From sequence record NC_103192.1: a stretch of DNA of 64,000 nucleotides, one strand, 5' to 3'. The translations under genes and the position numbers were made by a program. The notes beneath the pieces were generated by a model, which saw nothing but the letters and a program-made list of their open reading frames with translations, made no database searches and was not told the origin of the DNA. Source of the DNA: a phage. Positions 5,189 to 59,767 of this stretch are shown here, one piece after another; positions within the stretch are counted from its first letter, which is position 1; each line of letters opens with the position of its first letter.

Positions 5189-5773
5189 ATGAAAATACTT
5201 CAAGAGTTTAAACTTTACCAGCCGGGATCTGGCGAATACTACACCAACAAGGAGACCAAGGAGCTGACTCCTCAGGAGGTTGAGGATTACACAGCATACA
5301 CTGGATATTTTTTACGTAATGATGATGGCGATTGGTATGTGCAATCACGAACACTGCGACAAGAAAATCCAGGCTGTATCTTCCTACTTGTTGACGAGAA
5401 GGGTATTCTTAAGACATCTACAGAAGAACCTGATGCCTTGTGGCCTGCTCCAGGTCTTCGTGTGGTTATCGCCAAAAAAGAAGAGGTACCAGAAAACATT
5501 ATGCTCCACCACGACGCTTTGCGTTTAGTTGGTGATGAATTTGTCACAGACAATGAATTCTTTGTTCAACAGGCAGAGGGTGTCATAGAGACAGAACTTG
5601 CTTGGGCTACTGCTAGAATTGGTGCCTATCAAGACATGATTGACCTTGAATACGATCTTACTGATGACCAAAAACGCAACATCAGAGATTTGAAAATGTA
5701 CAGGGTAAAACTTCTTGAAATAGATACATCTAAAGCCCCTGACATTTTCTTCCCGGAACGACCTACCCTCTAA
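5189..5773 (+). CDS. hypothetical protein, possibly tail fiber assembly/chaperone
   Basis: 194-aa ORF immediately downstream of tail fiber gene; function by position only. Confidence 0.45.
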   Translation: MKILQEFKLYQPGSGEYYTNKETKELTPQEVEDYTAYTGYFLRNDDGDWYVQSRTLRQENPGCIFLLVDEKGILKTSTEEPDALWPAPGLRVVIAKKEEVPENIMLHHDALRLVGDEFVTDNEFFVQQAEGVIETELAWATARIGAYQDMIDLEYDLTDDQKRNIRDLKMYRVKLLEIDTSKAPDIFFPERPTL

Positions 5774-7241: not shown

Positions 7242-7508
7242 ATGAAATTAACTCAGTTTTTATGGGGACTGGTTGCAGCATCTGATGACCCTACAAAAGT
7301 GTCCCAATCTAAGCTATGGTCAAACATAGGCATGGCAGTGATGACTGGGGTGTTTATTCATATGGGGTATAATGATACGCTTCCTGAATGGTATGCGTGG
7401 ATATACGCACCTTCGGTAGCTTGCCCCCAGCTTATTAGCAAATTCATCTCGCTCCGGTGGGGTTGCCAACACCCTGACCACGTTAAAAACGAAGAGCAAA
7501 AAGCTTAA
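7242..7508 (+). CDS. hypothetical protein
   Basis: 88-aa ORF between tail fiber genes. Confidence 0.45.
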   Translation: MKLTQFLWGLVAASDDPTKVSQSKLWSNIGMAVMTGVFIHMGYNDTLPEWYAWIYAPSVACPQLISKFISLRWGCQHPDHVKNEEQKA

Positions 7509-7517
7509 GGAGAAATC

Positions 7518-9263
7518 ATGGCGCAAGACATGACAAGCTTCGAGCAGGCGGTAGATCAAGTAATTGTTGATTCTGAACGTTTGCACTTGATTGTCAACGG
7601 TAACGCTGTGGATGAAGTTGTCGTAGAGGATGGGACCACTATCCCTACGGTACGAAAAGCCATGCTTGACACCCTTTATTTTAAAACGCCGCCGATCCCT
7701 TGGGCGTATGGTGCATCCACAACAGTTTTTAACCAGTTGTATGAGTTTAAAGGAGATACGGGCACTCAGTGGTGGTACGCCCCAGCAGCATCAAAATCTA
7801 ACCCAGTTAGGATGCCAGCAGATCCTTCAGAATCTCCGAACTGGAGATTATATACCGATTCTGCAGTAATGGCAAAATACTACGCAAAACTTAACAGTCC
7901 AAGGTTCGAAGGTGACCCGAGAGTACCTACACCTCCAATGGACGATAAGTCCGAGTCTATAGCAAACACAGAGTTTGTTGTTGACTATGTGGATAGTATA
8001 TTCAAAGCCATGGAGGGGATGAAAGTAACTGTAGGGTCTTTGGTGGTAAAAGGTCTTACAGAACTTGCTAACACCATAGTTGGTGGCACCCTTACCTTGC
8101 ACGGGCCTGTTAATGGAGCGGATTCTACTGCACGCTTCAGGAACCTAATCCTTACTGCAAATACTTCTACATTGACTTTTGCGTGGAGCGATCCTAAGCA
8201 TGCAGACTGGAGAAGCACAGAGCTGCAACCTCATGAAGTATCCACCCACAGAGTTATAGCTGACACTATAACTTCTGGGAAACCAGTGGCTAATAACAAC
8301 GATGTGCATTTTGATGGTCTAGGTAATAACTTTTTTGACTACGTGTACATTCGTGGTAATGCCATGAAGGCAGCCACCGAACCGACATTGCAGGTTGATG
8401 GGACCACTAGGGTTAAGAACCTTGAGGTGACAGGCACCGTTACAGGGATAACCTACTCTGTAGATGGCACCATGATCTACCCTAGCTATATTGAAAGCAC
8501 GGGAGATGCACTGATCAATGGAGATTTAGAGGTTGGCGGGTCTGTAGTCATTCGTGGCACAGCATCTGTCCAGAACATATCTTTAAATACTCTGAGGGTG
8601 AATGAGCGTGCCACTTTTGAAGGAGAGGGGCTTACAGCCAACAAAGGTGTAATTACCGAGCTGACAACCACCACTCTAACTGCAACAACTGCAAACTCTG
8701 AAAACTGCAACGTTACCAGAAACTTGCAGGTAAATGGAGATGTTAGTTTAAACACAGCAGGGACGGGCACTACCCACCTTCACAACCTTGAAATATCAGG
8801 TACAGTGACTGGGTGGCTGCCAGACTTCTCTAATGTCAACTTTGTCTGTAATGGCATTAACTCCAGTGGCAAGATAACCACCTCTCAAGAAATTGAAGCT
8901 GGTAAAACTATTACTGCCCCTGCTTTCCATGCAGGGAAGGTGGAGTTTGACTTAGAGGAGGCTGACGCATCTAGTGGGACATGGACACCTAACGGGCAGG
9001 CCAATATGTATGTTGTCCACGCGAAAGGGGATTTTACAATAGGGCAATGGCCTGGAACATCGGCTGAAGATAAACCTTACCCGTTCACTGCAATCATCTA
9101 TGTCATTCAGGATGCTGTAGGCCACAACGTGACCTTACACGATAAATATGCCATACTGTCGGCTACTCCTGTTATTAACAACAAAGCCAACAGTGTCACC
9201 TTGCTACAATTGACATATTGTGGTGTTGGTGATATTGTGGATGTGGTTATTGCACAACGTTAA
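7518..9263 (+). CDS. tail fiber / tailspike-like protein
   Basis: 581 aa, repetitive T/G/N/V-rich segments (e.g. NLEVTGTVTG, NLEISGTVTG) typical of fibrous beta-structure proteins. Confidence 0.65.
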   Translation: MAQDMTSFEQAVDQVIVDSERLHLIVNGNAVDEVVVEDGTTIPTVRKAMLDTLYFKTPPIPWAYGASTTVFNQLYEFKGDTGTQWWYAPAASKSNPVRMPADPSESPNWRLYTDSAVMAKYYAKLNSPRFEGDPRVPTPPMDDKSESIANTEFVVDYVDSIFKAMEGMKVTVGSLVVKGLTELANTIVGGTLTLHGPVNGADSTARFRNLILTANTSTLTFAWSDPKHADWRSTELQPHEVSTHRVIADTITSGKPVANNNDVHFDGLGNNFFDYVYIRGNAMKAATEPTLQVDGTTRVKNLEVTGTVTGITYSVDGTMIYPSYIESTGDALINGDLEVGGSVVIRGTASVQNISLNTLRVNERATFEGEGLTANKGVITELTTTTLTATTANSENCNVTRNLQVNGDVSLNTAGTGTTHLHNLEISGTVTGWLPDFSNVNFVCNGINSSGKITTSQEIEAGKTITAPAFHAGKVEFDLEEADASSGTWTPNGQANMYVVHAKGDFTIGQWPGTSAEDKPYPFTAIIYVIQDAVGHNVTLHDKYAILSATPVINNKANSVTLLQLTYCGVGDIVDVVIAQR

Positions 9264-41939: not shown

Positions 41940-42311
41940 ATGTTAGTAAAAGGTACCCACACAGTCAAGCAACGTATTGAAGTTGAGATCGATGATTGTG
42001 AGCTGAAGCATATTTTGCGGTCATGCTCCAACGTTTTGCTCCTTAGTGTTCTCCAGGAGCGAGCGGAGAACGAGTTCTTAAATGCACTGGCAGGCCGTCC
42101 TGGTGACTTCTGTGTACGTAAACGTGGAAATAACAAACCGTGGCTATGGGAAATCGATGCCAGCTGGGATTACCACAAAAATGAGGGTATAGATGAGCCT
42201 ATTCGCGAACTGACTGAAAACGAAGTTCAGATGTACGAAGATGTTTGCCAGTGGGCAAAAAGTCAACAAACCTACCTTGATCCTTGGTGGATGATTGAAA
42301 ATAGTCGTTGA
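41940..42311 (+). CDS. hypothetical protein
   Basis: ATG after AGAGGAGG. Confidence 0.5.
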   Translation: MLVKGTHTVKQRIEVEIDDCELKHILRSCSNVLLLSVLQERAENEFLNALAGRPGDFCVRKRGNNKPWLWEIDASWDYHKNEGIDEPIRELTENEVQMYEDVCQWAKSQQTYLDPWWMIENSR

Positions 42312-42387
42312 CAACAGGTCGGGGTAGATGTAAGATACCCCACACAAACAGAGCGTTGATTTTTAAATAACTAAGGAGACTGCCAAG

Positions 42388-49799: not shown

Positions 49800-50265
49800 T
49801 TCTAAAATGGATTTCCTCCTTTTGATATTTCACCAGGCTGGATATTTTAAAATCCTTAGAAAATCAGAAAATGGATCGAAAACTAAAATGGATTTTTTCA
49901 AGACAGGCACGATAAGCTGCGCTGCTCATTCTATCATTCGCACCGTACTTCAAATCACAGTTCCAGATTTTCCACACACACTCTCGCCCATCTAACAGGA
50001 CTTTCCCAACTTACCTTCGACCTTTTATGACAATAAGTTAATTATTATCAGTAAGTTTTGATACATCTCTCTCAGTACTCGATCTGTTTTTCATTTCAAA
50101 GATTGGATTTTCTGAAAATTTTTCTCGATAAATTTCTCAGTACTCGATCTGTTTTTCGTTTTCTGAATTGGATTTTCTGGAAATCGTTCCAGCTCTCGAC
50201 CTGAAATTTTTGGGGACGAAATCGATTTTTCGTTTTCAGAAATGGATTTTTAAAATTTCTATATG
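49800..50265. repeat. iteron-like AT-rich repeat array
   Basis: about 6 copies of (a)aatggattt(t); three imperfect tandem copies of a ~65-bp unit from 50071 containing ctcagtactcgatctgtttttc and ttggattttctg(a/g)aaat. Confidence 0.6.
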
Positions 50266-50365
50266 GGAATATTTTAGTGGATACTATTTTATAGGAAATT
50301 GTTACGGAGGGTAATTAGCATGCTAACTAAATTTATTAAATGCGAAAAGTTCTCATTTAGAATTT

Positions 50366-50690
50366 TGAATGATAATCATTCTCGTTTGCAGAATAACGGG
50401 CACCCCCGGTGATTGTCTCCCGGCCCCTGTTGCCCCGGCTTGTTATTATAGTATCACACAGGACAAAGAAAGCAAAGACTTTTTGCATAAATTTTTAAAT
50501 GATAATGATAACCGTTCTCATTTTATGCAGCGCCCATCCCCGGTGGTTGTCTCCCCCGTCACCGGTGCCTGCCGTCCTTTCGATAGGTATATTGTGCCAC
50601 CTGGCGGGGCCGCTGTCAACACTTTTCAAAAAAAAAAAATTCTAACCTGATGCGCTAACCGTTGCAACCTGGCGGGGCCAGCCTGGCAGG
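50366..50690. repeat. GC-rich repeat family (copies A1, A2 plus acctggcgggg motifs)
   Basis: aatgataat...gttctc...cccccggtg(a/g)ttgtctccc repeated at about 50366 and 50495; acctggcgggg at 50598, 50667, 50863; inverted copy at 59727-59767. Confidence 0.5.
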
Positions 50691-50986
50691 TCCGCGCTAT
50701 AAAGTAAGCAGCTACAGAAGAGGTACAAAAATGAAAAGTAATATAATCCCCTGGAAAATGTAGCGATCAATGCCGCTGAAGTTATCGCCCTGGTTGAAAA
50801 GGCTATGGCGGGAGCGTTGGAACATAAAGAAGAGTACGAAAAAATGGTGGTTAACCTGGCGGGGGGCGGCAGGTGGATTCTATCATAAAAATAATTTAAA
50901 ATAGTCGTTGACAACAAGGTTAATCATGGTATTATTACCCTACAAGGTGAACAACACCACACTAATTAACAGAGAGGATAAAAATC

Positions 50987-51647: not shown

Positions 51648-51735
51648 AAAAAAAAATTATTGACACGCTGCAAAATTCAAGTAAACTATGCACAAAAGGC
51701 GGGAATGTTTCCCGCCAACACAAAGGAAAAAGATC

Positions 51736-52131
51736 ATGAATAAGAACGTACGCCGCATCATGAACGAACTGGCAAACGATGAAAAAATTATTGACATGCA
51801 TTTAGTCAACATTTGCCGCCGTTGTGTAACATATAACAACCGCGCCGCAAAAGCGCGTGAGATGAACGCAAAAGGCACCTTAAAGCCCTTTCAGGTGGTT
51901 GTAAAATCTATAACTAATGCAGCAGGCCAGGCGCATGACCACAACAACGAGAGCGCTAATATTGATCCGTCTTACGTAATGAAACGGATCCGGACTTGCA
52001 AGAATAAAGAGCAGGTGTATAACGTCATAGATTGGCTGGACTCCCTGGGCGATGTGGTTTACAATAGGTTTTCTGCAGCTATCGAGATCCAGCTTGACAG
52101 ATTGGACGGGAAAGTACTAAAAACTTATTGA
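51736..52131 (+). CDS. hypothetical protein
   Basis: ATG after AAGGAAAAAG; preceded by promoter and hairpin ggcgggaatgtttcccgcc. Confidence 0.55.
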   Translation: MNKNVRRIMNELANDEKIIDMHLVNICRRCVTYNNRAAKAREMNAKGTLKPFQVVVKSITNAAGQAHDHNNESANIDPSYVMKRIRTCKNKEQVYNVIDWLDSLGDVVYNRFSAAIEIQLDRLDGKVLKTY

Positions 52132-52178
52132 GTTTATTTTTAGATGGCCTTGACACCAGGGCCATCAATAAAGTAAAC
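52132..52178 (+). promoter_or_regulatory. repeated promoter/operator cassette, copy 1
   Basis: tttatttttagATGGCCttgacaccagGGCCATcaataaagtaaac: -35 TTGACA inside a 6-bp-arm inverted repeat. Confidence 0.5.
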
Positions 52179-52210
52179 TAATCTCAGTTAGGCTAAAAGG
52201 AGGCTTGAAG

Positions 52211-52330
52211 ATGAGCACTACACGCCAGCACACAAAGGTAACCATCATCGTTTGCATCATTGGTTACATCCTGGCGCAAATGTTGATGGGTAGCGCCAAT
52301 GATTTCGCAAAATTTTTCTTAAACTTCTAA
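52211..52330 (+). CDS. small hydrophobic peptide (39 aa, below ORF-track cutoff)
   Basis: ATG after AAAAGGAGG; MSTTRQHTKVTIIVCIIGYILAQMLMGSANDFAKFFLNF. Confidence 0.4.
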   Translation: MSTTRQHTKVTIIVCIIGYILAQMLMGSANDFAKFFLNF

Positions 52331-52358
52331 TTGACAAGCTAACTTAAATCAGTATAAT
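52331..52358 (+). promoter_or_regulatory. sigma70-type promoter
   Basis: TTGACA (52331-52336), 16-nt spacer, TATAAT (52353-52358); followed by leader hairpin and the gene at 52411. Confidence 0.6.
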
Positions 52359-52410
52359 ACTAAGCACATAAACGGGAAAACTTCCCAGAACACCAAAAGG
52401 AGAAAACATT

Positions 52411-52761
52411 ATGAATACTTCCATCACTATGACCGCCGAAGAAAAAGCCCTGCAGATCGCCGCTCTGAAAAAACAGATTGCAGAACTTGAAGACAAGATC
52501 GACAATTTTGAAATCGACGAAGACAAACACGACGATAAATATGATGAATGGTTAGACGAGATCTACGGCGAAATCATGATCGGAAACATTTCTTTTCTTC
52601 CGTCGCGTATCCTCAAGGAGCTAGATCCTATCGCTTACCGCTGCGGATTTAGCGACTACATCGACAGCCTAGATATTGAGGACGATGAAGAATACCAGGA
52701 ATTGCAGACAGAGCTCGAAGAAGTGAAAGAGGAGCTTTCAGAGCTGGAAGAAAACGAGTAA
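52411..52761 (+). CDS. highly acidic coiled-coil protein (candidate DNA mimic)
   Basis: 116 aa, rich in D/E (IEDDEEYQELQTELEEVKEELSELEENE). Confidence 0.6.
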   Translation: MNTSITMTAEEKALQIAALKKQIAELEDKIDNFEIDEDKHDDKYDEWLDEIYGEIMIGNISFLPSRILKELDPIAYRCGFSDYIDSLDIEDDEEYQELQTELEEVKEELSELEENE

Positions 52762-52808
52762 ATTTATTTTTAGATGGCCTTGACACCAGGGCCATCAATA
52801 AAGTAAAC
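52762..52808 (+). promoter_or_regulatory. repeated promoter/operator cassette, copy 2
   Basis: identical to copy 1 over about 47 nt; immediately follows a stop codon. Confidence 0.5.
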
Positions 52809-52850
52809 TTTATACTGTTAACACTTAACCAATACAGAGGAGTTAAAACC

Positions 52851-53096
52851 ATGGCCGCACTAATTACCAAATATTATGCCCCTACCAACACCAAAAGCGC
52901 CCGTATCATGGTAAAAGGCTTCGGACGTAAAAAGGTGTACACCTGGGATTATTCCCTAGACATGGAAGACAACTACACCAACGCGATGACAGATTTTATT
53001 AATGAGCTGAACACGCGGATCTTGACAAATTATAAAATTACCGATATTGCCTATGTAGGGGAAGGCGGGATCTGTTTTGTCGGTATCGTCAAATAA
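52851..53096 (+). CDS. hypothetical protein
   Basis: 81-aa ORF after AGAGGAG. Confidence 0.5.
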   Translation: MAALITKYYAPTNTKSARIMVKGFGRKKVYTWDYSLDMEDNYTNAMTDFINELNTRILTNYKITDIAYVGEGGICFVGIVK

Positions 53097-53172
53097 ACTG
53101 TTTTTTCGGTGGTCCTGGTAGCAGGGCCATCTATAAAGATAGTTTATCAACACAATGAAAGGAGAAAGTAAC

Positions 53173-53520
53173 ATGATCAGCGGGGCAAGTTTTATTATTG
53201 GCGCTATTGCTACGGCTTTAATTGTAAACAAGATCCAGGATAAAAAGGAAAGTACCGCCCTTGCAGAATATCCATTTTGGACATTCAACGATAATGAAGA
53301 TTATATTGTAAAGTATAAAAATAAAGAAGGTGACCAAGTAACACCGCGACCGATCCCGGCTTACAAAATGCAGGAAACACTGTACCGCCTGGAAGCGGGG
53401 GGCGCAAAAATTGTAGACTTTTGGGGATACGATCACACAGATCAGGAAGTTATAAAGCGCCGTATCCGGGCTATTCAGGCCAATATCGAAGTTAGTAAGG
53501 GGGGAATATATGAAGATTAA
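53173..53520 (+). CDS. hypothetical membrane protein
   Basis: ATG after AAAGGAGAAAG; N-terminal hydrophobic segment. Confidence 0.5.
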   Translation: MISGASFIIGAIATALIVNKIQDKKESTALAEYPFWTFNDNEDYIVKYKNKEGDQVTPRPIPAYKMQETLYRLEAGGAKIVDFWGYDHTDQEVIKRRIRAIQANIEVSKGGIYED

Positions 53521-53707
53521 TTTTGAAAAGATTGTAAAGCGATCTCATGATTCCGAAGAGCTGCCGGAACGCCGCCAGCGTAACAATAAACTGAATAAGC
53601 CAAAAAGATTTGGGAAGATCTGGCGGAATCATTATGATCGCAAATTACCGGGCCTGCTTTTGGAACGTGAACGACAGGCGGAACGATACCGCCACAAAGG
53701 CAAATAA
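53510..53707 (+). CDS. small basic protein
   Basis: 65-aa Arg/Lys-rich ORF. Confidence 0.45.
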   Translation: MKINFEKIVKRSHDSEELPERRQRNNKLNKPKRFGKIWRNHYDRKLPGLLLERERQAERYRHKGK

Positions 53708-53715
53708 CAACCAAC

Positions 53716-53741
53716 GCCCCGCCATTGTGCGGGGCTTTTTA
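53716..53741 (+). terminator. intrinsic terminator
   Basis: gccccgccattgtgcggggc followed by tttttatttc. Confidence 0.65.
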
Positions 53742-53952
53742 TTTCTATCCTACGAATAGCGCCCCTGGTTGGCCCCACAAACGCCACAAAAGCCCCTACC
53801 TATGCAATCCCCTTTCTTAATCTGAAAACATCACCCAGGGCCGTTTTATGGCGTTAAAAATATTATTGACAGTTATTTTATTTAAAGCTTGACACCTTGG
53901 AATAGTCCGGATATACTAGCCACATCAAAGCAAGAAGGAAGGAGTAAACGCC

Positions 53953-54213
53953 ATGCGTAAATTGAAAAATTTTGATAAGGTCGATGCAGTACTAAATAAT
54001 TTTTACTACTGCAATAATAAAGCCGTTTGGTGGCGTGATAGTTCCACCGATAAAGTTAAAGCGCGCTTTCTCCAGGGGCACTGGCAAGGCCGCCCAGTGA
54101 TTAAAATCTTGGGGCAATTGGTAGCGTTTAAAAATTGCCGCCGTGTTGATGACGTTGAAGAGATTTTAAACATTTTGCGCCACAATAATTTAAAAAATAG
54201 TGTTGACAAGTAA
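53953..54213 (+). CDS. hypothetical protein
   Basis: 86-aa ORF after GGAAGGAG. Confidence 0.5.
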   Translation: MRKLKNFDKVDAVLNNFYYCNNKAVWWRDSSTDKVKARFLQGHWQGRPVIKILGQLVAFKNCRRVDDVEEILNILRHNNLKNSVDK

Positions 54214-54285
54214 GTATCAATAAGTATACTTAAACACAGGCGGGAAAACTTCCCGCCACTAACAAAGAAAATAGGAGAAAATATC

Positions 54286-54909
54286 ATGACCACCGTTAAC
54301 ATTACCACAGGTTACAATTTAGCTTTCGACGTGCTGACCGACGAACAAAAAGAAAAAGCCGTTGAAATGGTCCGAGAAAGAGAAGAACACAGCGGGGATA
54401 ACTTTTTTGCAGAAAGTGTAATTGAAGACTATAAAGAATATGTCTTTCCAGAGTATGGCCTTGAAGATACCAAGGTACATTGGTCCGGCTTTTGGTGTCA
54501 GGGTGACGGCGCGTCAATCAGTGCGGAAAACGTGGATTTAGAAAAATTCTTGCGTAAAGTCAAGTCTCTGACTAAATTTCGCTCAATTCGTCACTTGTTC
54601 GGCACAATGCACGATGGCGAACTATCCGCAAGTGTTGAGCGTGATCCATATAGCCGCTATAGCCACGAAAACACTGTAAACGGGTACATCGATACTACAT
54701 GGCTAGACCTGACCGCCAAACAAGAAGATAAAGTGGAAGATTTGGAAGAACTGATCACCGAGACGGTACGGGAGCTATCCCGCAAGGTTTACGTAGACTT
54801 GGAAGCGGCCTATTTGGAGCAATTCACATCTGAAAACCTGATCAACCTTATTAAGGACAATGATTGGCGGTTTGATGTAGATGAACATGGCGAGATGACT
54901 TTTTCATAA
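54286..54909 (+). CDS. hypothetical protein
   Basis: 207-aa ORF after ATAGGAGA; preceded by promoter and hairpin ggcgggaaaacttcccgcc. Confidence 0.55.
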   Translation: MTTVNITTGYNLAFDVLTDEQKEKAVEMVREREEHSGDNFFAESVIEDYKEYVFPEYGLEDTKVHWSGFWCQGDGASISAENVDLEKFLRKVKSLTKFRSIRHLFGTMHDGELSASVERDPYSRYSHENTVNGYIDTTWLDLTAKQEDKVEDLEELITETVRELSRKVYVDLEAAYLEQFTSENLINLIKDNDWRFDVDEHGEMTFS

Positions 54910-54998
54910 ATAAAGTGTTGCAATAACCTAAAAACCTGCTATATTAAAACTCAAGGGGGCAAGACGTTTGCCCCACACAAAACAAAGAGGAAAACATT

Positions 54999-55379
54999 AT
55001 GAAAAACACTACTAAAGCTATTGACACCGTTATGTTTAACCTGGTTACCTTTCGCGAGGATATGAAAGATCTTCCACGTGAAACAGTGTGCGATCACATT
55101 GAAAACTATCGCAAACTAATCAAAGAGTTGCCTTTAAAACGTGACCAGTATGCGGCTAACGCTATGCTCAACGCCATGATCAAAAAGATGATTCAGTGTG
55201 ATTTAACCCTGGCCTATGATTATGCAGGTGGTCGTTTTGCAGTATATAATCAGCCCGTGCCTGGTATGGGCACCACCGAAGAATTGCACGCGCTCAATCT
55301 AAAACAAGACGTGTGGGATAGTATGCCTCGCGTGGTGGTGTGGGCAGAAAGCGGAAAGATTTACGGCGATAATTTTTAA
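54999..55379 (+). CDS. hypothetical protein
   Basis: 126-aa ORF after AAAGAGGA. Confidence 0.55.
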   Translation: MKNTTKAIDTVMFNLVTFREDMKDLPRETVCDHIENYRKLIKELPLKRDQYAANAMLNAMIKKMIQCDLTLAYDYAGGRFAVYNQPVPGMGTTEELHALNLKQDVWDSMPRVVVWAESGKIYGDNF

Positions 55380-55445
55380 TCAAGAACAGACGGCGGCATA
55401 TTTGCCGCCTTATTGTTAAACAGAACTGCAAAAGAGGTACATAGA

Positions 55446-55817
55446 ATGGAATTTATTATTTTGGCTGTATTAGTTGCCTTGTTTAACGCCTGGATCGCTG
55501 GCAAGATGGGTAGATCCGCCTTTTTATGGTTTATTATATCTATTTTCCTGGGGGTGGTTGCAACTATTGTATTAGTTATCCTTGCAATTGTTGACAAGGG
55601 CGATAATAGAAAGGGTAAAGTATTTTCAGACCTGTACGACGCTCAAACGTTTGTCAACGCATATTATAGTGATCTTCCAGTCTCCCTACGCTGCAGCCTG
55701 GCACAACAAGTTTTCGATGAGGCTAAAACCAGAGATCAAGCCCATGAGATATGTTTAACTGAGGCGGATCGCCTATTTGAGAGGAATAGAAAATATGTGG
55801 GCCAACCGTTTAAATAA
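55446..55817 (+). CDS. hypothetical membrane protein
   Basis: two hydrophobic segments at N-terminus; ATG after AGAGG. Confidence 0.5.
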   Translation: MEFIILAVLVALFNAWIAGKMGRSAFLWFIISIFLGVVATIVLVILAIVDKGDNRKGKVFSDLYDAQTFVNAYYSDLPVSLRCSLAQQVFDEAKTRDQAHEICLTEADRLFERNRKYVGQPFK

Positions 55818-56040
55818 TGCCACGTTAATTAATCCCTTTAGTGAAGATTTGAAGCCAGCCGCCTGGCGTGATGGATTCAATACCGAACGCTTTATTTTCA
55901 GGCCTGATCTTGAGGAATTTTATAACAATGGATCGAACAACGACAGAGATAATTTTTCTTGTGATGTGCGTAGTGATGGTACTCCTGGGGGCCATTGTAA
56001 ACCACGTCACTACTACCAGGAGGAAAGGGGGAGACGATGA
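55795..56040 (+). CDS. hypothetical protein
   Basis: ATG after GAGAGGAA. Confidence 0.45.
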   Translation: MWANRLNNATLINPFSEDLKPAAWRDGFNTERFIFRPDLEEFYNNGSNNDRDNFSCDVRSDGTPGGHCKPRHYYQEERGRR

Positions 56041-56156
56041 CACCCAAGGATAAGCCACGCACCGATAAGGCGCGCCGTGTTATGGTGTGGCTGGAGATCA
56101 TCGCCCTTGAAATATTGTTAGGCGTAGGGATGTACTTTATCGCTATAAGTAACTAA
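56037..56156 (+). CDS. small membrane peptide (39 aa, below ORF-track cutoff)
   Basis: ATG overlaps upstream stop (ATGA) after GGAGG; hydrophobic C-terminal half; followed by a hairpin plus T-run at 56161-56190. Confidence 0.35.
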   Translation: MTPKDKPRTDKARRVMVWLEIIALEILLGVGMYFIAISN

Positions 56157-56295
56157 GAACGGCCCCCGATCATGGGGCTTATCTTTTTAAAAAATTTTTC
56201 TTCTAGGGTGTTGCAATCCGGTCCGAGATGTGGATAATGACAATCAACGGGGAGCCAATCCCCACCAACACAAAAAACCAGAAAGGAGAAACAAA

Positions 56296-56496
56296 ATGAG
56301 CAACAATATCCGCGTTATTAACTTCAAAAAAGAAGAAAAAATTGCCGTGCTGATTGACGGTCAAGAAATCTTCAAGGGCGATTATGAAGATCATCAAACG
56401 GCGATTAGTATCACTCGCGTGATCGGTTACCATAATTTCTACCCCCAAGGCGCTGAGGCAGCAGTTAAACGAATCAAAGAGATTGTAGGCCTGTAA
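56296..56496 (+). CDS. hypothetical protein
   Basis: ATG after AAAGGAGAAA. Confidence 0.5.
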   Translation: MSNNIRVINFKKEEKIAVLIDGQEIFKGDYEDHQTAISITRVIGYHNFYPQGAEAAVKRIKEIVGL

Positions 56497-56545
56497 AATT
56501 TATTTTTAGATGGCCTTGACATCAGGGCCATCAATAAAGTAAATT
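56497..56545 (+). promoter_or_regulatory. repeated promoter/operator cassette, copy 3
   Basis: aatttatttttagATGGCCttgacatcagGGCCATcaataaagtaaat; one substitution in the spacer. Confidence 0.5.
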
Positions 56546-56581
56546 TAAACCCTGTTAAAATAATCAGTGCAAAAAGGAGTA

Positions 56582-56887
56582 ATGATCATGTTTATACCCG
56601 CCAATAATCTTTATTTCTTTGATGGTCAGATCGTAGACGGTGTGGAAGTCGAGATCACTGGATGTCAAGGCGGTCAGGCAATGATCTTTCGCAATAGTGC
56701 CTTTAACGATCAATTCATTACAATGACCATGGAAGTTAAAAAGCTGGACGATAAGAAAACGCTCATTGACTATTCCGTGAAAGATCATCCAGACTACCAC
56801 ATGATCTATGGTGATTTGTGCATTGTTGACCGTGACAAGGTGGGCGGCATTGTGATCGCTATTGTGAACGATGTTTTCTCAAACTAA
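56582..56887 (+). CDS. hypothetical protein
   Basis: ORF after AAAAAGGAG; start 56582 or 56588. Confidence 0.5.
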   Translation: MIMFIPANNLYFFDGQIVDGVEVEITGCQGGQAMIFRNSAFNDQFITMTMEVKKLDDKKTLIDYSVKDHPDYHMIYGDLCIVDRDKVGGIVIAIVNDVFSN

Positions 56888-56904
56888 TTTCAGCAGGTGA
56901 TTTT

Positions 56905-57255
56905 ATGAAAGTAAAACTATATTACCTTAATGAGCTTAACCCCCTTGCCCAGGTCCGCGCCCTGGCTAATACCTTGATTTGTGAGAAATCTGCATATTGT
57001 GTTGAGCTTAACGCCATGCGTGAACGTCTTAAAGGGGGTTACTTTGACATCCATGCTGCAATCAACGGCCTGAATATGGGATTTATACGCTTACGTAACA
57101 GCCGCCGGAATCTGGCAAGAATGGAACAAGATCCGGCCCACCTTCGTAAGCTGGTTATTGAAAACCATCTGATGTTTAATGCCGAGGGTGATTATTACCA
57201 TTTTCACCGCAAACGCTGGTACCGTGGCGGCAATACAGGCAAGAGTGCAAAATAA
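56905..57255 (+). CDS. hypothetical protein
   Basis: 116-aa ORF. Confidence 0.5.
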   Translation: MKVKLYYLNELNPLAQVRALANTLICEKSAYCVELNAMRERLKGGYFDIHAAINGLNMGFIRLRNSRRNLARMEQDPAHLRKLVIENHLMFNAEGDYYHFHRKRWYRGGNTGKSAK

Positions 57256-57290
57256 GGCCCCAGGCAGGGCCTGCAGCGATATAATCACAT

Positions 57291-57324
57291 AAAGGCTATG
57301 CGGTTGCATGGCCTTTATTATTTT
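57291..57324 (+). terminator. intrinsic terminator
   Basis: aaaggctatgcggttgcatggccttt followed by attatttt. Confidence 0.55.
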
Positions 57325-57456
57325 AGCGTTACAGCGGCCTCCAAGGCGCTTAAAAATTTTTAAAGAAGTACTTGCATCAAGCCCTACAATATGGATAATA
57401 GGACGTGTCAGGGGGGCGGCCCCCAATCATTAACCAGATAGATAGGAGTTAAAACC

Positions 57457-57741
57457 ATGGCTATTGTTACCGCTGGCGATGTAGTAGAAATGGAAGCAAA
57501 ATACTTAAAAGCTGGTATGCATATCATCCGCAATGATCTTGATCTGGTCCTCACTATGGTTGATTATAACCCTGGTCAAGATTATCCAAGCGTTGACTAC
57601 TTTTTCCAGTATGTTGATGAAGAATTAAAAGAGGATGAGGCTTATCGGGGTGAATTTTGTAATTTCTTTTGCCCTGATGAGGTTGTAAAAGTTATTTATC
57701 AACCTGGCGTACCTTTCCCGTTGCACGCTATCAATAAATAA
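57457..57741 (+). CDS. hypothetical protein
   Basis: 94-aa ORF after ATAGGAG. Confidence 0.5.
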   Translation: MAIVTAGDVVEMEAKYLKAGMHIIRNDLDLVLTMVDYNPGQDYPSVDYFFQYVDEELKEDEAYRGEFCNFFCPDEVVKVIYQPGVPFPLHAINK

Positions 57742-57807
57742 ACCTGGAGGGGCCGATAAGGCCCCCACCCAACCTGAGATTATGAAAATAAAGAGAGACA
57801 AATCATC

Positions 57808-58041
57808 ATGATGGAACAAATTAAACGCGCTGAGGCTATTAATGGCAATGTGATCTATTTTGTCAGCAAAAACGAAAAAGGCGTACCATATGCGGCGGTA
57901 ATAGTACAGCCTGACGGCAATTATTGGTTTACTGTATACGGATCTTATTCTTTCGGGCGTCCGGTGCATGATAGAATTTTGAAAGTAGCGAACCCCACCG
58001 GGAAGAATATCACGGCAGAAAAATTTTTTGAAAATAATTGA
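57808..58041 (+). CDS. hypothetical protein
   Basis: 77-aa ORF. Confidence 0.5.
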   Translation: MMEQIKRAEAINGNVIYFVSKNEKGVPYAAVIVQPDGNYWFTVYGSYSFGRPVHDRILKVANPTGKNITAEKFFENN

Positions 58042-58119
58042 CAACGTTTTAAATTAGTTTAAGATGTATCACGTAGGGGCAAGCGCCCTATTAAACGCAA
58101 CAAGAAGAGGATAAACACC

Positions 58120-58359
58120 ATGAAAAGCAGTAAAGGTTATAACGGTTGGAAAAACTTTAATCAGTGGAACGTTGTTCTGTGGATCAATAATGACGAAAGT
58201 ATGTACTTTTTCGCCCTGGGCCTGATTAATGAGTGTGGTAATAAAGGTGCGGCGGCTGATTTGATGTGCTACCGTTTGAAACAGGAAGGGATCACCCATA
58301 CCCCTGACGGTGTGCCTTATACTAAAACCAATATCCGCGCCGCTATGGTTGGAATGTGA
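58120..58359 (+). CDS. hypothetical protein
   Basis: 79-aa ORF after AGAAGAGGA. Confidence 0.5.
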   Translation: MKSSKGYNGWKNFNQWNVVLWINNDESMYFFALGLINECGNKGAAADLMCYRLKQEGITHTPDGVPYTKTNIRAAMVGM

Positions 58360-58448
58360 TAAAATAGCTTGACACTGTTTTTTATTCTGGTATAGTTTAT
58401 CACATAGGGCGGCAATAGTGCCGCTCACAACTAAAAAGGGAAATCATC

Positions 58449-58643
58449 ATGGCGCTTAAAAAACTAACAAGCAATACTCGTTGGGATGAAATCGACGGGG
58501 AAGTTTACATTTTTGCCCGTAAACCAGGGGATCAAAAATGGTCAAAGGCTTTTACTTGCCACCCTGCAACAATAGATCTAATAAAAAGTAAAGGTTTACG
58601 TGAAGCAGTAGCGAGAAGTTTACTGATCCCTTATAAAAAATAG
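58449..58643 (+). CDS. hypothetical protein
   Basis: 64-aa ORF after AAAAAGGGAAA. Confidence 0.45.
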   Translation: MALKKLTSNTRWDEIDGEVYIFARKPGDQKWSKAFTCHPATIDLIKSKGLREAVARSLLIPYKK

Positions 58644-58703
58644 TTTGACAATATCGCACTAACCTTTAAAATGTTCTCTGTTACGTATCTTTAAAGGTGT
58701 AAC

Positions 58704-58883
58704 ATGTTCCAATCAATCATTGATGTTCTATCAGTCGCTAACAACGTGATGAACGTCATTACAATGATTAAACTTGTTGCGTGGTTTGTTTCTGGGGATT
58801 ATCGCTATACTAAGTGGCGCAAGCCAACCATAAAAGACGTAGCAAAGATCTTGTTTGAAGCAATGACAGAATATTATCTATAA
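58704..58883 (+). CDS. small hypothetical protein (59 aa, below ORF-track cutoff)
   Basis: ATG after AAAGGTG; promoter-like TTGACA at about 58644. Confidence 0.35.
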   Translation: MFQSIIDVLSVANNVMNVITMIKLVAWFVSGDYRYTKWRKPTIKDVAKILFEAMTEYYL

Positions 58884-58979
58884 CGATTATTTTTTGTTGA
58901 CATCTTGGGATTGCTCTTTTACTATTAACGTGACTCGAAGGCCGTAACTGGTACGGCCTGATTCGAAAGGTGAATTAAT

Positions 58980-59180
58980 ATGAAACGTTTTACTTATGGC
59001 GTTGTTGGTGGGTATGTATCTAACCGTTTTTACAATACCGAGCGTGGTGCTAAAAATGCCGCTACCCGTGAACATGGCAATAGTGTGAATTTACAAATTG
59101 GTTATATTAGCAACATTAGTGGTATGTTTATTCCGGTTGCTCAACGCGGCATGTATTGCATAAACTGGATGCCAATGTAA
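58980..59180 (+). CDS. hypothetical protein
   Basis: 66-aa ORF. Confidence 0.45.
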   Translation: MKRFTYGVVGGYVSNRFYNTERGAKNAATREHGNSVNLQIGYISNISGMFIPVAQRGMYCINWMPM

Positions 59181-59195
59181 AAAGGAGTAATAAAA

Positions 59196-59387
59196 ATGAA
59201 TGCCGAACAAGTTAGAAAGGTATTGGCGGTACTGCGTTATCATAATCATAGAAAGGTCATAGACGATCCTGATTATGTTGATTCAAGCCTGGAAGAAGGC
59301 ACATTGCAAGCTATAAGCCATATGCAAGAATTGCTTAAGCGTATGACAGAGAAAAACAGATCTGATTATATAGGTGACGAGATCTAA
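59196..59387 (+). CDS. hypothetical protein
   Basis: 63-aa ORF after AAAAGGAG. Confidence 0.45.
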   Translation: MNAEQVRKVLAVLRYHNHRKVIDDPDYVDSSLEEGTLQAISHMQELLKRMTEKNRSDYIGDEI

Positions 59388-59471
59388 AATAGCTTGCACA
59401 ATGTATCTGATAGTGTAAGATGTATCACGTAGGGCGGCAATGGTGCCGCTCACAACTGGAAGGAAAACACC

Positions 59472-59675
59472 ATGACTACAGCTAACCGCCTGATCGCCGT
59501 CCTGAACAAAGCAAAGGCTAACCGCCTGGATGTTCAAATCAAAGATCAAGCAAATGGCGAGATCCTTGCTACGGTGTCCGATGGCGGTTATGTATCGGAA
59601 TCATTTTTATCAGGGAGCTTAGATCATCTTGTTTGGAAATTAGAAATTATCGTGGAGGATATGCAGATCATCTAA
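59472..59675 (+). CDS. hypothetical protein
   Basis: 67-aa ORF. Confidence 0.5.
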   Translation: MTTANRLIAVLNKAKANRLDVQIKDQANGEILATVSDGGYVSESFLSGSLDHLVWKLEIIVEDMQII

Positions 59676-59684
59676 TCTTTACAA

Positions 59685-59712
59685 AACAGGGCTTGCAATG
59701 GTCCTGTTTTTT
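59685..59712 (+). terminator. intrinsic terminator
   Basis: acagggcttgcaatggtcctgt followed by tttttt. Confidence 0.65.
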
Positions 59713-59726
59713 GTTATACTTATTCT

Positions 59727-59767
59727 ACGGCAGGCACCTGGCGACGGGGGGAGACAATCACCGGGCC
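59727..59767. repeat. inverted copy (A3) of the GC-rich repeat seen at 50533-50576
   Basis: cggcaggcacctggcgacggggggagacaatcaccgggcctgcc is approximately the reverse complement of ccccggtggttgtctcccccgtcaccggtgcctgccg. Confidence 0.5.

What the first reader, a model, noticed from the sequence alone, without database searches (positions are those of the whole stretch)
52132..52178. Three near-identical promoter cassettes with a palindrome around the -35 hexamer
A ~47-nt cassette occurs three times (52132-52178, 52762-52808, 56497-56545), each placed immediately after a stop codon and about 70 nt upstream of the next gene. It contains TTGACA inside a perfect inverted repeat ATGGCC-N10-GGCCAT. 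A palindrome overlapping the -35 element is the geometry of an operator for a dimeric repressor or activator, so these three genes (starts 52211, 52851, 56582) may be co-regulated by a phage or host factor. The preceding T-rich tract could also act as an UP element.
Basis: seen in the sequence. Interest (0 to 1): 0.5.

Follow-up and report, generated by a model that had tools for sequence, protein, structure and literature searches.

The report
Promoter nested in a repeated hairpin
The three "promoter cassettes" are real, but there are four copies, and each is a long hairpin in the sense-strand RNA that sits between small early genes of an rV5-like coliphage; three copies carry a host-type promoter and the copies also recombine with each other, so the palindrome is RNA structure, not a repressor binding site.

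Summary
The core 22-mer occurs 3 times against 0.01 expected by chance.

The window is a Vequintavirus (rV5-like coliphage). The cassettes lie in its early region of small genes of unknown function.

ATGGCC-N10-GGCCAT is only the top of a two-tier hairpin of 20-23 bp that spans the whole cassette. The T-tract pairs with the "-10" region. It folds well only as + strand RNA (-22 to -28 kcal/mol, z -6 to -8).

The fourth copy has lost TTGACA. It keeps both stems through four double compensatory changes and G.U wobbles.

In copies 1-3 TTGAC is invariant in 36 of 37 copies examined, while the rest of the loop varies. This supports a real sigma-70 -35 element.

Magaca, ime, phiWec189 and one metagenome contig carry a single hybrid copy 1/copy 2 cassette and lack the 577-bp two-gene module between them. 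The cassettes are therefore recombination points.

Best reading: a PeSL-type composite cassette, known so far from T4-like phages, whose hairpin has the geometry of T7 RNase III sites. The dimeric-operator idea is not supported. It is a new variant of a known kind, of moderate interest.

The parts
52129..52181 (+). Cassette copy 1. Stop codon TGA 52129-52131. Lower stem 52131-52140 pairs with 52170-52179. Internal loop 52141-52142 and 52167-52169. Upper stem 52143-52152 pairs with 52157-52166. Loop ACAC 52153-52156. Embedded -35 TTGACA 52150-52155 and -10 TAAACT 52174-52179.
   Evidence: 80.2 bits
52759..52811 (+). Cassette copy 2. Stop codon TAA 52759-52761. Same two-tier hairpin at 52761-52809. 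-35 at 52780-52785, -10 at 52804-52809.
   Evidence: 79.8 bits
53093..53147 (+). The hairpin is retained (13-bp lower stem, 10-bp upper stem with two extra G.U pairs, loop GUAG). TTGACA is replaced by CTGGTA and there is no promoter-like site of 9/12 or better. Stop codon TAA 53094-53096.
   Evidence: -28.2 kcal/mol, z -8.1; 73 bits
56495..56547 (+). Cassette copy 3. Stop codon TAA 56494-56496. Hairpin 56497-56545, loop ACAU. -35 at 56516-56521, -10 TAAATT at 56540-56545.
   Evidence: 81.6 bits
52182..52758 (+). Two-gene module bounded by copies 1 and 2: a 39-aa ORF at 52211-52330, the consensus promoter at 52331-52358, and a 116-aa ORF at 52411-52761. It is absent from magaca, ime, phiWec189 and IMG/VR contig L004, which keep one hybrid cassette.
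52211..52330 (+). Gene downstream of copy 1 (39 aa, rV5 ORF193 homologue, phrog_16391, unknown function).
52851..53096 (+). Gene between copy 2 and copy 4 (81 aa, rV5 ORF191 homologue, phrog_3199, unknown function). Distant homologues occur in unrelated sipho-, podo- and Pseudomonas phages.
53173..53520 (+). Gene 27 nt after copy 4 (115 aa, rV5 ORF190 homologue). It has no promoter-like site of its own, so it is inferred to be transcribed through the copy 4 hairpin.
56588..56887 (+). Gene downstream of copy 3 (99 aa from the ATG at 56588; an in-frame ATG also lies at 56582). phrog_7366, unknown function.

Best explanation
Each cassette is a composite intergenic punctuation module of the PeSL type (promoter-early stem-loop), sitting in the early, hyperplastic region of small unknown-function genes of a Vequintavirus.

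(1) Shown. The roughly 50 nt from the upstream stop codon to the end of the -10-like hexamer form a two-tier hairpin in the + strand, which is the mRNA sense strand: a 10-13-bp A/U-rich lower stem, a 2x3 internal loop, a 10-bp G/C-rich upper stem and a 4-nt loop. Pairing, not sequence, is what the diverged fourth copy and its orthologues conserve.

(2) Inferred. The hairpin forms in transcripts arriving from the promoter upstream and marks the 3' boundary of the upstream message. The most likely mechanism is endonucleolytic processing by host RNase III, as at the T7 early R-sites. A helix of at least 20 bp with a small internal loop 10 bp below a tetraloop matches the geometry of the T7 sites I folded. 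After cleavage, or otherwise, the hairpin would act as a 3' stabiliser or partial attenuator. It is unlikely to be a strong terminator: no U-tract follows, and the gene after copy 4 has no promoter of its own.

(3) Inferred from sequence. In copies 1-3 the same DNA is also a host sigma-70 early promoter: a T/A-rich UP-like tract, TTGAC(A/T/G) in the top of the upper stem and the loop, an 18-nt spacer and TAAA(C/T)T. It restarts transcription about 7 nt past the hairpin, so its own transcripts lack the hairpin.

(4) Shown by comparison. The near-identical copies are substrates for homologous recombination. Several relatives carry a single copy 1/copy 2 hybrid and lack the module between them, and loop variants are shared between copies within a genome, which indicates concerted evolution.
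For: Identity of the window: 92-93% identical to Vequintavirus genomes such as naswa, EmilHeitz and FFH2. The cassette is present in 120 phage records, all rV5-like, usually 3 blast-detectable copies each.

Hairpin:
- RNA minimum free energy is -22.5 to -28.2 kcal/mol, z -5.8 to -8.1, with 0 of 200 shuffles as good. The - strand gives only -12.7 to -16.9.
- As ssDNA it is only about -10 kcal/mol, and the lower stem is missing from the centroid structure of copy 2.
- RNAalifold independently returns the same structure.
- In the pair counts, 98.7% of cells are paired and 4 pairs have changes on both sides. The covariation score is 0.206 against 0.118 shuffled (0 of 500 shuffles reach it) and at most 0.058 when the partner is slid.
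- The base at the outer edge of the T-tract covaries with the 5th base of the '-10' hexamer 46 nt away (G-C 9, A-U 7, G.U 4, other 3). Promoter function alone does not explain that.
- Orthologues of copy 4 show C-G to U-A and G.U to A-U to G-C exchanges.

Against a strong terminator: there is no promoter-like site of 9/12 or better in or after copy 4, and the next ATG is 27 nt downstream.

RNase III-like geometry: the five T7 early R-sites fold with a 9-13-bp upper stem and a 3-5-nt loop. R0.3 and R0.5 show a clear internal loop and a lower stem of about 8 bp, R1 only in part, and R1.1 and R1.3 lack a lower tier in the 77-nt windows I folded. The site positions are from my memory of Dunn and Studier; the positions of the adjacent promoters come from the T7 record.

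Promoter: 10 of 12 match with an 18-nt spacer. TTGAC is invariant in 36 of 37 copy 1-3 sequences and the next two bases vary. PhagePromoter calls copies 2 and 3 promoters in the Gotham record. Two 45-nt features annotated 'terminator' in the Murica record cover copies 3 and 4. Independent annotators therefore flagged both halves of the composite.

Recombination:
- Magaca L008 5024-5076, phiWec189 L009 1626-1678 and IMG/VR L004 214-266 each have the left flank of copy 1 and the right flank of copy 2, and lack window 52182-52758.
- Ime shows the same single-piece junction. Magaca's flanks are 100% identical to module-bearing phages such as nom, nimi and inoa.
- Loop position 3 is A/A/A in the window and T/T/T in rV5, Gotham, Murica and two metagenome genomes.

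Context: 8 of 16 strong + strand promoter sites at 48-64 kb have a G/C hairpin within -50 to +80, against 21% of random positions. All neighbouring genes match only PHROG families of unknown function.

Published analogue: PeSLs begin at the upstream stop codon in an AT-rich tract and contain a sigma-70-like promoter plus a stem-loop with G-T pairs. The stem-loop can overlap the -35 or the -10. One tested stem-loop reduced downstream reporter expression, and PeSLs mediate ORFan indels between RB49 and phi1 (PMC2839356; PMC4122927).
Against: - There are no experimental data for this phage group. I found no mapping of transcription start sites or 3' ends for any Vequintavirus.
- RNase III cleavage is inferred from geometry only. 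The internal loop (2x3) is smaller than in the T7 sites, so cleavage could be double-stranded, or absent.
- A Keio-collection screen with the rV5-like phage LL12 found only LPS genes to be required. RNase III is not named in the main text, so it is presumably not essential for plaque formation (PMC7229145). To my knowledge the same is true of T7.
- Most of the covariation rests on one old split (copy 4 against copies 1-3) plus a few within-lineage changes. All sequences come from one genus, so independent events are few.
- The rV5 authors' stringent promoter list, as reflected in the GenBank features, does not include the cassettes. The 18-nt spacer and the 4/6 -10 hexamer predict a moderate promoter.
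- The direction of the copy 1/copy 2 event (deletion or insertion) is unknown. The two deletions in rV5_ev146 do not use cassettes as junctions.
Confidence: 0.6

Rival explanations
1. The cassettes are early promoters whose ATGGCC-N10-GGCCAT palindrome is an operator for a dimeric phage or host repressor or activator that co-regulates the three downstream genes.
For: The perfect 6+6 (really 7+7) inverted repeat is centred on the -35 hexamer, and the arms are invariant in copies 1-3 of nearly all genomes examined; the exception is the truncated copy 1 of Gotham. The geometry is that of many operators.
Against: The repeat is the top of a much longer helix that includes the T-tract and the -10 region. 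Copy 4 keeps pairing while its left arm changes by wobble-compatible transitions, four lower-stem pairs change on both sides, and TTGACA is lost. The G.U asymmetry picks out one strand (my count of 82 against 5; energies), which a duplex-DNA protein site does not explain. No candidate regulator was identified. Three identical promoters are co-expressed without any factor.
Confidence: 0.1
2. The hairpin is a transcription terminator or attenuator, or simply a barrier to 3' exonucleases, acting without RNase III. Together with the embedded promoter it would insulate one-gene transcription units, as proposed for PeSL stem-loops.
For: One PeSL stem-loop reduced downstream lacZ expression as much as the rrnB T1 terminator (PMC2839356). 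Two 45-nt features annotated 'terminator' in the Murica record cover copies 3 and 4. A short UUUA(U) follows the lower stem in copies 2, 3 and 4.
Against: There is no real U-tract, and the stem next to the tail is A/U-rich, so the cassettes are absent from the terminator scan. The gene after copy 4 has no promoter and must be read through. Neither a terminator nor an exonuclease barrier needs the selected, covarying 10-13-bp lower stem that extends the helix beyond 20 bp.
Confidence: 0.2
3. The structure acts at the DNA level. A + strand ssDNA hairpin or cruciform would serve as a recombination, replication or mobility signal, as in a miniature palindromic mobile element, and the promoter-like hexamers would be incidental.
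For: The cassette was copied between unrelated genes. The copies recombine and evolve in concert. The PeSL authors speculated that a protein might target the stem-loop (PMC2839356).
Against: The ssDNA fold is weak, about -10 kcal/mol, and for copy 2 the lower stem is not in the centroid. A.C mismatches on the other strand disfavour a cruciform. I saw no target-site duplication and no associated recombinase. Ordinary homologous recombination over 44-50 identical bases is enough to explain the junctions.
Confidence: 0.07

Closest known systems
PeSLs (promoter-early stem-loops) of T4-like phages RB49/phi1, T4/PST and KVP40/nt-1 (Arbiol et al. 2010, PMC2839356; Comeau et al. 2014, PMC4122927)
   Same: Both are intergenic and start at the stop codon of the upstream small ORF in an AT-rich tract. 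Both contain a sigma-70-like -35/-10 pair and a stem-loop with G-T(U) pairs that may overlap the -35 or the -10, followed by a Shine-Dalgarno sequence and an ATG. Both occur in several similar copies clustered in a variable region of small unknown-function genes. In both, related genomes differ by loss or gain of the ORFs between two copies, leaving one chimeric copy.
   Different: The host lineage is different (Vequintavirinae, not T4-like). There is no sequence similarity: blastn with the cassette finds only rV5-like phages. Here the entire promoter, from the UP-like tract to the -10, is nested inside one long two-tier helix of 20-23 bp, rather than carrying a short GGGG...CCCC stem. One copy has the hairpin without the promoter. 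Promoter activity, terminator activity and mini-circles were shown experimentally for PeSLs and are untested here.
RNase III processing sites of the phage T7 early region (R0.3, R0.5, R1, R1.1, R1.3)
   Same: Both are a small family of similar two-tier hairpins between genes of a polycistronic early transcript. In the folds the T7 upper stems are 9-13 bp with 3-5-nt loops, and at R0.3, R0.5 and partly R1 an internal loop and a lower stem follow. In T7 they sit next to promoters.
   Different: There is no sequence homology. The internal loop is 2x3 here, against about 4x5 in T7. The lower stem here is pure A/U. A promoter is embedded in the helix rather than beside it. Cleavage by RNase III has not been tested.
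Morons of lambdoid phages (promoter-gene-terminator units)
   Same: Both are small accessory genes bracketed by their own transcription signals and found in variable positions. The 81-aa gene between copies 2 and 4 has homologues in unrelated phages.
   Different: Moron signals are not conserved repeats and are not thought to mediate their own shuffling. Here the bracketing element is a near-identical repeat that is itself the crossover site.

Membership tests
PeSL (promoter-early stem-loop) cassette | Sigma-70-like -35 and -10 with an AT-rich region upstream | tested here: met
   TTGACA-18-TAAACT or TAAATT, 10 of 12 matches, preceded by AAATTTATTTTT, in copies 1-3. Not met by copy 4 (7 of 12 by my count, and absent).
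PeSL (promoter-early stem-loop) cassette | Stable stem-loop within or overlapping the promoter, G-T pairs allowed | tested here: met
   Two-tier hairpin, -22 to -28 kcal/mol, z -6 to -8. The upper stem and loop contain the -35, and the lower stem contains the -10.
PeSL (promoter-early stem-loop) cassette | Intergenic position, from the upstream stop codon to the Shine-Dalgarno/ATG of the next small ORF, in a variable region dense in such motifs | tested here: met
   The stop codon lies at the base of the lower stem in all four copies. The neighbours match only PHROG families of unknown function. 8 of 16 nearby promoter sites have G/C hairpins, against 21% of random positions.
PeSL (promoter-early stem-loop) cassette | Indels of ORFs between two copies in related genomes, leaving one chimeric copy | tested here: met
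   Magaca, ime, phiWec189 and IMG/VR L004.
PeSL (promoter-early stem-loop) cassette | Promoter activity, reduction of downstream expression, and mini-circle formation shown experimentally | not testable with these tools
   Needs reporter assays and inverse PCR on infected cells.
PeSL (promoter-early stem-loop) cassette | Occurrence in T4-like phages, the only group in which PeSLs have been described | tested here: not met
   The window is a Vequintavirus. No PeSL paper in the held library concerns this group. PeSL is a functional class, not a homologous family, so this limits the claim to 'PeSL-like'.
RNase III processing site (T7 R-site type) | Helix of about 20 bp or more (two turns), often interrupted by an internal loop about 10 bp below the hairpin loop | tested here: met
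   10-bp upper stem, 2x3 internal loop and 10-13-bp lower stem. The T7 sites were folded for comparison.
RNase III processing site (T7 R-site type) | Located between cistrons of a polycistronic transcript | tested here: inconclusive
   The position between genes is shown. Read-through transcription from the upstream promoters at 51660, 52331 and 52780 is inferred, because no terminator lies between them and the cassettes.
RNase III processing site (T7 R-site type) | Cleavage by RNase III in vitro, and rnc-dependent ends in vivo | not testable with these tools
   No data exist. The LL12 host-factor screen does not mention rnc.
Rho-independent terminator | G/C-rich stem immediately followed by a U-tract | tested here: not met
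   The cassettes are absent from the terminator scan. The tails are AAUCUC, UUUAUAC, UUUAAAC and UCAACAC, after an A/U-rich lower stem.
Operator for a dimeric DNA-binding protein | Both half-site sequences conserved among functional copies | tested here: inconclusive
   The half-sites are conserved in copies 1-3. In copy 4 the left arm differs at 2 of 7 positions while complementarity is kept through G.U pairs. Binding itself cannot be tested here.
Any Rfam family | Match to a curated covariance model | tested here: not met
   There is no hit at the cassettes in 48-64 kb at E up to 1.

The most novel reading that the evidence does not exclude
One 50-nt sequence would be read three ways. As duplex DNA it is a host sigma-70 promoter. 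As RNA in read-through transcripts it is an RNase III-type processing and stabilising hairpin whose stems are built from the promoter's own UP-like tract, -35 and -10. As a repeat it is the crossover point that inserts and deletes small early genes. If so, PeSL-like shuffling cassettes are not peculiar to T4-like phages, and their 'terminator' half may really be an RNA-processing site.
Probability: 0.3. Interest if true: 0.55.

Novelty: new variant of a known kind. Interest (0 to 1): 0.4.

Why it matters
rV5-like phages are widely isolated and used for E. coli O157 typing and biocontrol, but their early transcription has never been mapped. These cassettes give a concrete, testable unit for two things: how their early messages are punctuated, and how their variable genes of unknown function are gained and lost.

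If the hairpins are RNase III sites with nested promoters, the PeSL concept extends beyond T4-like phages and links to T7-style mRNA processing. Phage engineers would then have a natural 50-bp recombination and insulation site for swapping small genes. If not, the finding remains an ordinary repeated early promoter with a stem-loop.

Tried and rejected
- Rfam scan of 48-64 kb at E up to 1: only two weak, irrelevant hits away from the cassettes.
- Search for more copies or more distant relatives. The covariance model found none beyond the four in the window (filters off) or in the whole rV5 genome. blastn with the cassette against 50,697 phage records found only rV5-like genomes. Degenerate-pattern scans of IMG/VR and the JGI/ENA metagenomes returned only rV5-like contigs. 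The search for related loci with the 81-aa neighbour gave 2 loci. No cross-genus covariation could therefore be obtained.
- rV5_ev146, which has a single cassette and a 6-kb smaller genome, was checked as a possible cassette-mediated deletion. Its two deletions have junctions with 15-19 nt of overlap elsewhere, not at the cassettes.
- Literature search for Vequintavirus transcriptomics or start-site mapping: nothing usable.
- The LL12 Keio screen does not implicate RNase III.
- The rV5 paper and its GenBank features do not list the cassettes as promoters or terminators.
- Intrinsic terminator on either strand: rejected, because no U-tract follows the hairpin on either strand.
- Functional link between the three downstream genes: none found. 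They match only PHROG families of unknown function, and there is no Pfam hit above threshold.
- tblastn of the 81-aa gene found homologues in unrelated phages but in no other Vequintavirinae genus. I did not fetch phi92, PVP-SE1 or Certrevirus genomes.

Full report
**1. Observation.**
The three sites read exactly as described. The core ATGGCCTTGACACCAGGGCCAT occurs three times on the + strand with 0-1 mismatch, against 0.01 expected from 100 dinucleotide shuffles. A repeat search adds a fourth copy at 53095-53145 with 71% identity. A covariance model built from the four copies finds them at 73-82 bits and nothing else in the 64-kb window with filters off.

Each copy begins at the stop codon of the upstream ORF. 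The next ATG is 79-91 nt from the cassette start.

**2. Where we are.**
The window is 92-93% identical to Vequintavirus (rV5-like) coliphages. Positions 48-61 kb correspond to rV5 ORF210-ORF164. This is a run of small + strand genes of unknown function with many near-consensus sigma-70 promoter-like sites.

The cassette occurs in 120 phage records, all rV5-like, usually three blast-detectable copies each. The complete rV5 genome has exactly four copies, all between ORF194 and ORF178.

Existing annotations disagree:
- rV5 annotates none of the copies.
- Gotham labels copies 2 and 3 as PhagePromoter promoters.
- Murica has 45-nt features annotated 'terminator' over copies 3 and 4.

**3. Anatomy.**
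Folding shows that the 6+6 palindrome is only part of the structure. The whole cassette is a two-tier hairpin:
- a lower stem of 10-13 bp, in which the T-tract pairs with AAAGUAAAC, the '-10' region;
- a 2x3 internal loop;
- an upper stem of 10 bp (GAUGGCCUUG with CAGGGCCAUC, including one U.G pair);
- a 4-nt loop.

| Strand and molecule | Free energy (kcal/mol) |
|---|---|
| + strand RNA | -22.5 to -28.2 (z -5.8 to -8.1) |
| - strand RNA | -12.7 to -16.9 |
| + strand ssDNA | about -10 |

As ssDNA the lower stem is not in the centroid structure of copy 2. TTGACA occupies the last three pairs of the 5' arm plus three loop bases.

**4. Is the pairing selected?**
Copy 4 has CTGGTA in place of TTGACA, but it keeps every pair. 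Three upper-stem positions changed on one side only, and all three remain wobble-compatible: A-U to G.U, C-G to U.G, and U.G to C-G. Four lower-stem pairs changed on both sides.

I collected orthologues from nine phage or IMG/VR loci and four further metagenome genomes. They add C-G to U-A and G.U to A-U to G-C exchanges in copy 4. They also add G-C, A-U and G.U states at the outermost variable pair, which links the edge of the T-tract to the 5th base of the '-10' hexamer 46 nt away.

On 23 distinct sequences:
- 98.7% of cells are paired;
- the covariation score is 0.206 against 0.118 for shuffles (0 of 500 reach it);
- the score is at most 0.058 when the 3' partner is slid by 1-3 columns.

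RNAalifold predicts the same structure without my input.

G.U cells on the + strand outnumber A.C cells 82 to 5 (my count from the table). The folded strand is therefore the + strand, which is the mRNA sense strand.

One caveat applies. All sequences come from one genus, and most of the signal is one old split plus a few recent changes.

**5. Is there also a promoter?**
Copies 1-3 match TTGACA-18-TAAACT or TAAATT at 10 of 12 positions. The upstream AAATTTATTTTT tract resembles the distal half of the UP-element consensus (my own knowledge).

Of the 37 copy 1-3 sequences examined, 36 keep TTGAC and the two following loop bases vary freely: ACAC, ACUC, ACUU, ACAU, ACGC. The exception is the diverged copy 1 of L005/L016, with TTGATA. 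A pure hairpin loop would not protect only its first two bases, so this favours a real -35 element. A start about 7 nt after the -10 would give a 25-40-nt leader with a strong Shine-Dalgarno sequence and no hairpin.

Copy 4 scores 7 of 12 by my count and is not in the scan output. Its downstream gene starts 27 nt later. That gene must therefore be transcribed through the hairpin, which argues against efficient termination.

**6. Recombination.**
Magaca, phiWec189 and IMG/VR contig L004 each have one cassette. Its left flank is that of copy 1 and its right flank is that of copy 2. The 577-bp module between the copies (a 39-aa ORF, a consensus promoter and a 116-aa ORF) is missing. Ime has the same single-piece junction.

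Magaca's flanks are 100% identical to those of phages that carry the module. The crossover lies within the 44 nt shared by the two copies.

Loop position 3 is A/A/A in this window but T/T/T in rV5, Gotham, Murica and two metagenome genomes. The simplest explanation is exchange between copies.

The deletions in rV5_ev146 do not use the cassettes as junctions, so the cassettes are not the only route to deletion.

**7. Mechanism.**
Shown:
- a conserved + strand helix;
- promoter-like hexamers conserved in three copies;
- indels bounded by cassettes.

Inferred:
- In transcripts coming from the upstream promoters (51660, 52331, 52780), the helix marks the end of the upstream message.
- The selected extension of the helix to at least 20 bp, with a small internal loop 10 bp below a tetraloop, is not something a terminator or an exonuclease barrier needs.
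- It matches the geometry of T7 early RNase III sites. I folded the five sites for comparison. Upper stems are 9-13 bp with 3-5-nt loops. R0.3 and R0.5 show an internal loop and a lower stem of about 8 bp, R1 only in part, and R1.1 and R1.3 lack a lower tier in the windows I folded. In T7 the sites lie next to promoters.

I therefore rank RNase III processing, leaving a 3' hairpin or separating the messages, as the most likely RNA-level role, at roughly 0.4-0.5. An attenuator or 3' stabiliser acting without RNase III comes next.

**8. Comparison with what is known.**
The closest published class is the PeSL of T4-like phages. A PeSL runs from the stop codon in an AT-rich tract, through a sigma-70-like promoter and a stem-loop with G-T pairs that may overlap the -35 or -10, to the Shine-Dalgarno sequence and ATG. 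PeSLs cluster in hyperplastic regions. One tested stem-loop reduced downstream reporter expression, and recombination between flanking PeSLs deletes or inserts ORFans (PMC2839356; PMC4122927).

Every sequence-level PeSL feature is met here. The experimental features are untested. The phage lineage is different, and I found no report of PeSLs in Vequintavirinae.

The neighbourhood as a whole is PeSL-like. Half of the strong promoter sites carry G/C hairpins without U-tracts.

The differences from described PeSLs are:
- full nesting of the promoter inside a long two-tier helix;
- one copy that has only the hairpin.

**9. Verdict.**
The promoter reading is plausible. The operator reading is not supported. 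This is a new variant of a known kind of phage regulatory and recombination cassette. It is of moderate interest and is easily testable by RNA end-mapping in rnc+ and rnc- hosts.

Noticed in passing
window 50000-50320: A non-coding gap holds three imperfect direct repeats of 47-55 nt, starting at 50065, 50130 and 50204 (spacing 65 and 74 nt). It lies upstream of the ORF at 50369. The repeats might be an iteron-like or other regulatory array.
   Followed up: partly
window 51698-51716, 54239-54257, 58407-58426, 58939-58959 (also 52373-52387 and about 59432): G/C-rich hairpins without U-tracts begin 36-42 nt after the start of the -35 hexamer of strong + strand promoters, roughly at the predicted transcript 5' end. 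Two are near-identical (GGCGGGAA...TTCCCGCC). Another pair belongs to repeat family D7. Overall 8 of 16 promoter sites have such a hairpin nearby, against 21% of random positions.
   Followed up: partly
window 42291-42316 and 50891-50916: A 26-nt repeat (ATRATTKAAAATAGTCGTTGACAACA) contains a -35 hexamer with its upstream A/T tract. It is a second, different duplicated promoter upstream region (family D13).
   Followed up: no
GenBank MG0656xx records (for example MG065635 and MG065672): About 17-21 records named 'Campylobacter phage', with host given as C. jejuni, are more than 90% identical to E. coli Vequintavirus genomes across this region. The host label looks doubtful.
   Followed up: no
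L003 (rV5_ev146, LR699804) 7479-7497 and 8894-8908: This phage has two deletions relative to the window: about 51730-52222, which removes cassette copy 1, and about 53658-59755, which removes copy 3. The junctions show 15-19 nt of overlap and do not lie in the cassettes.
   Followed up: partly
window 52851-53096: The 81-aa gene flanked by cassette copies 2 and 4 has 30-46%-identical homologues in unrelated phages: slur01-like siphoviruses, Pseudomonas KIL-like myoviruses and Klebsiella podoviruses. It appears to be a widely exchanged small gene.
   Followed up: no
L002 (Gotham) 5389-5436; L005 5281-5335: These are decayed variants of copy 1. Gotham lacks GGGCC, which destroys both the hairpin and the promoter spacing. 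IMG/VR contig 3300010279 has TTGATA, a 5-nt loop and a different downstream gene.
   Followed up: partly
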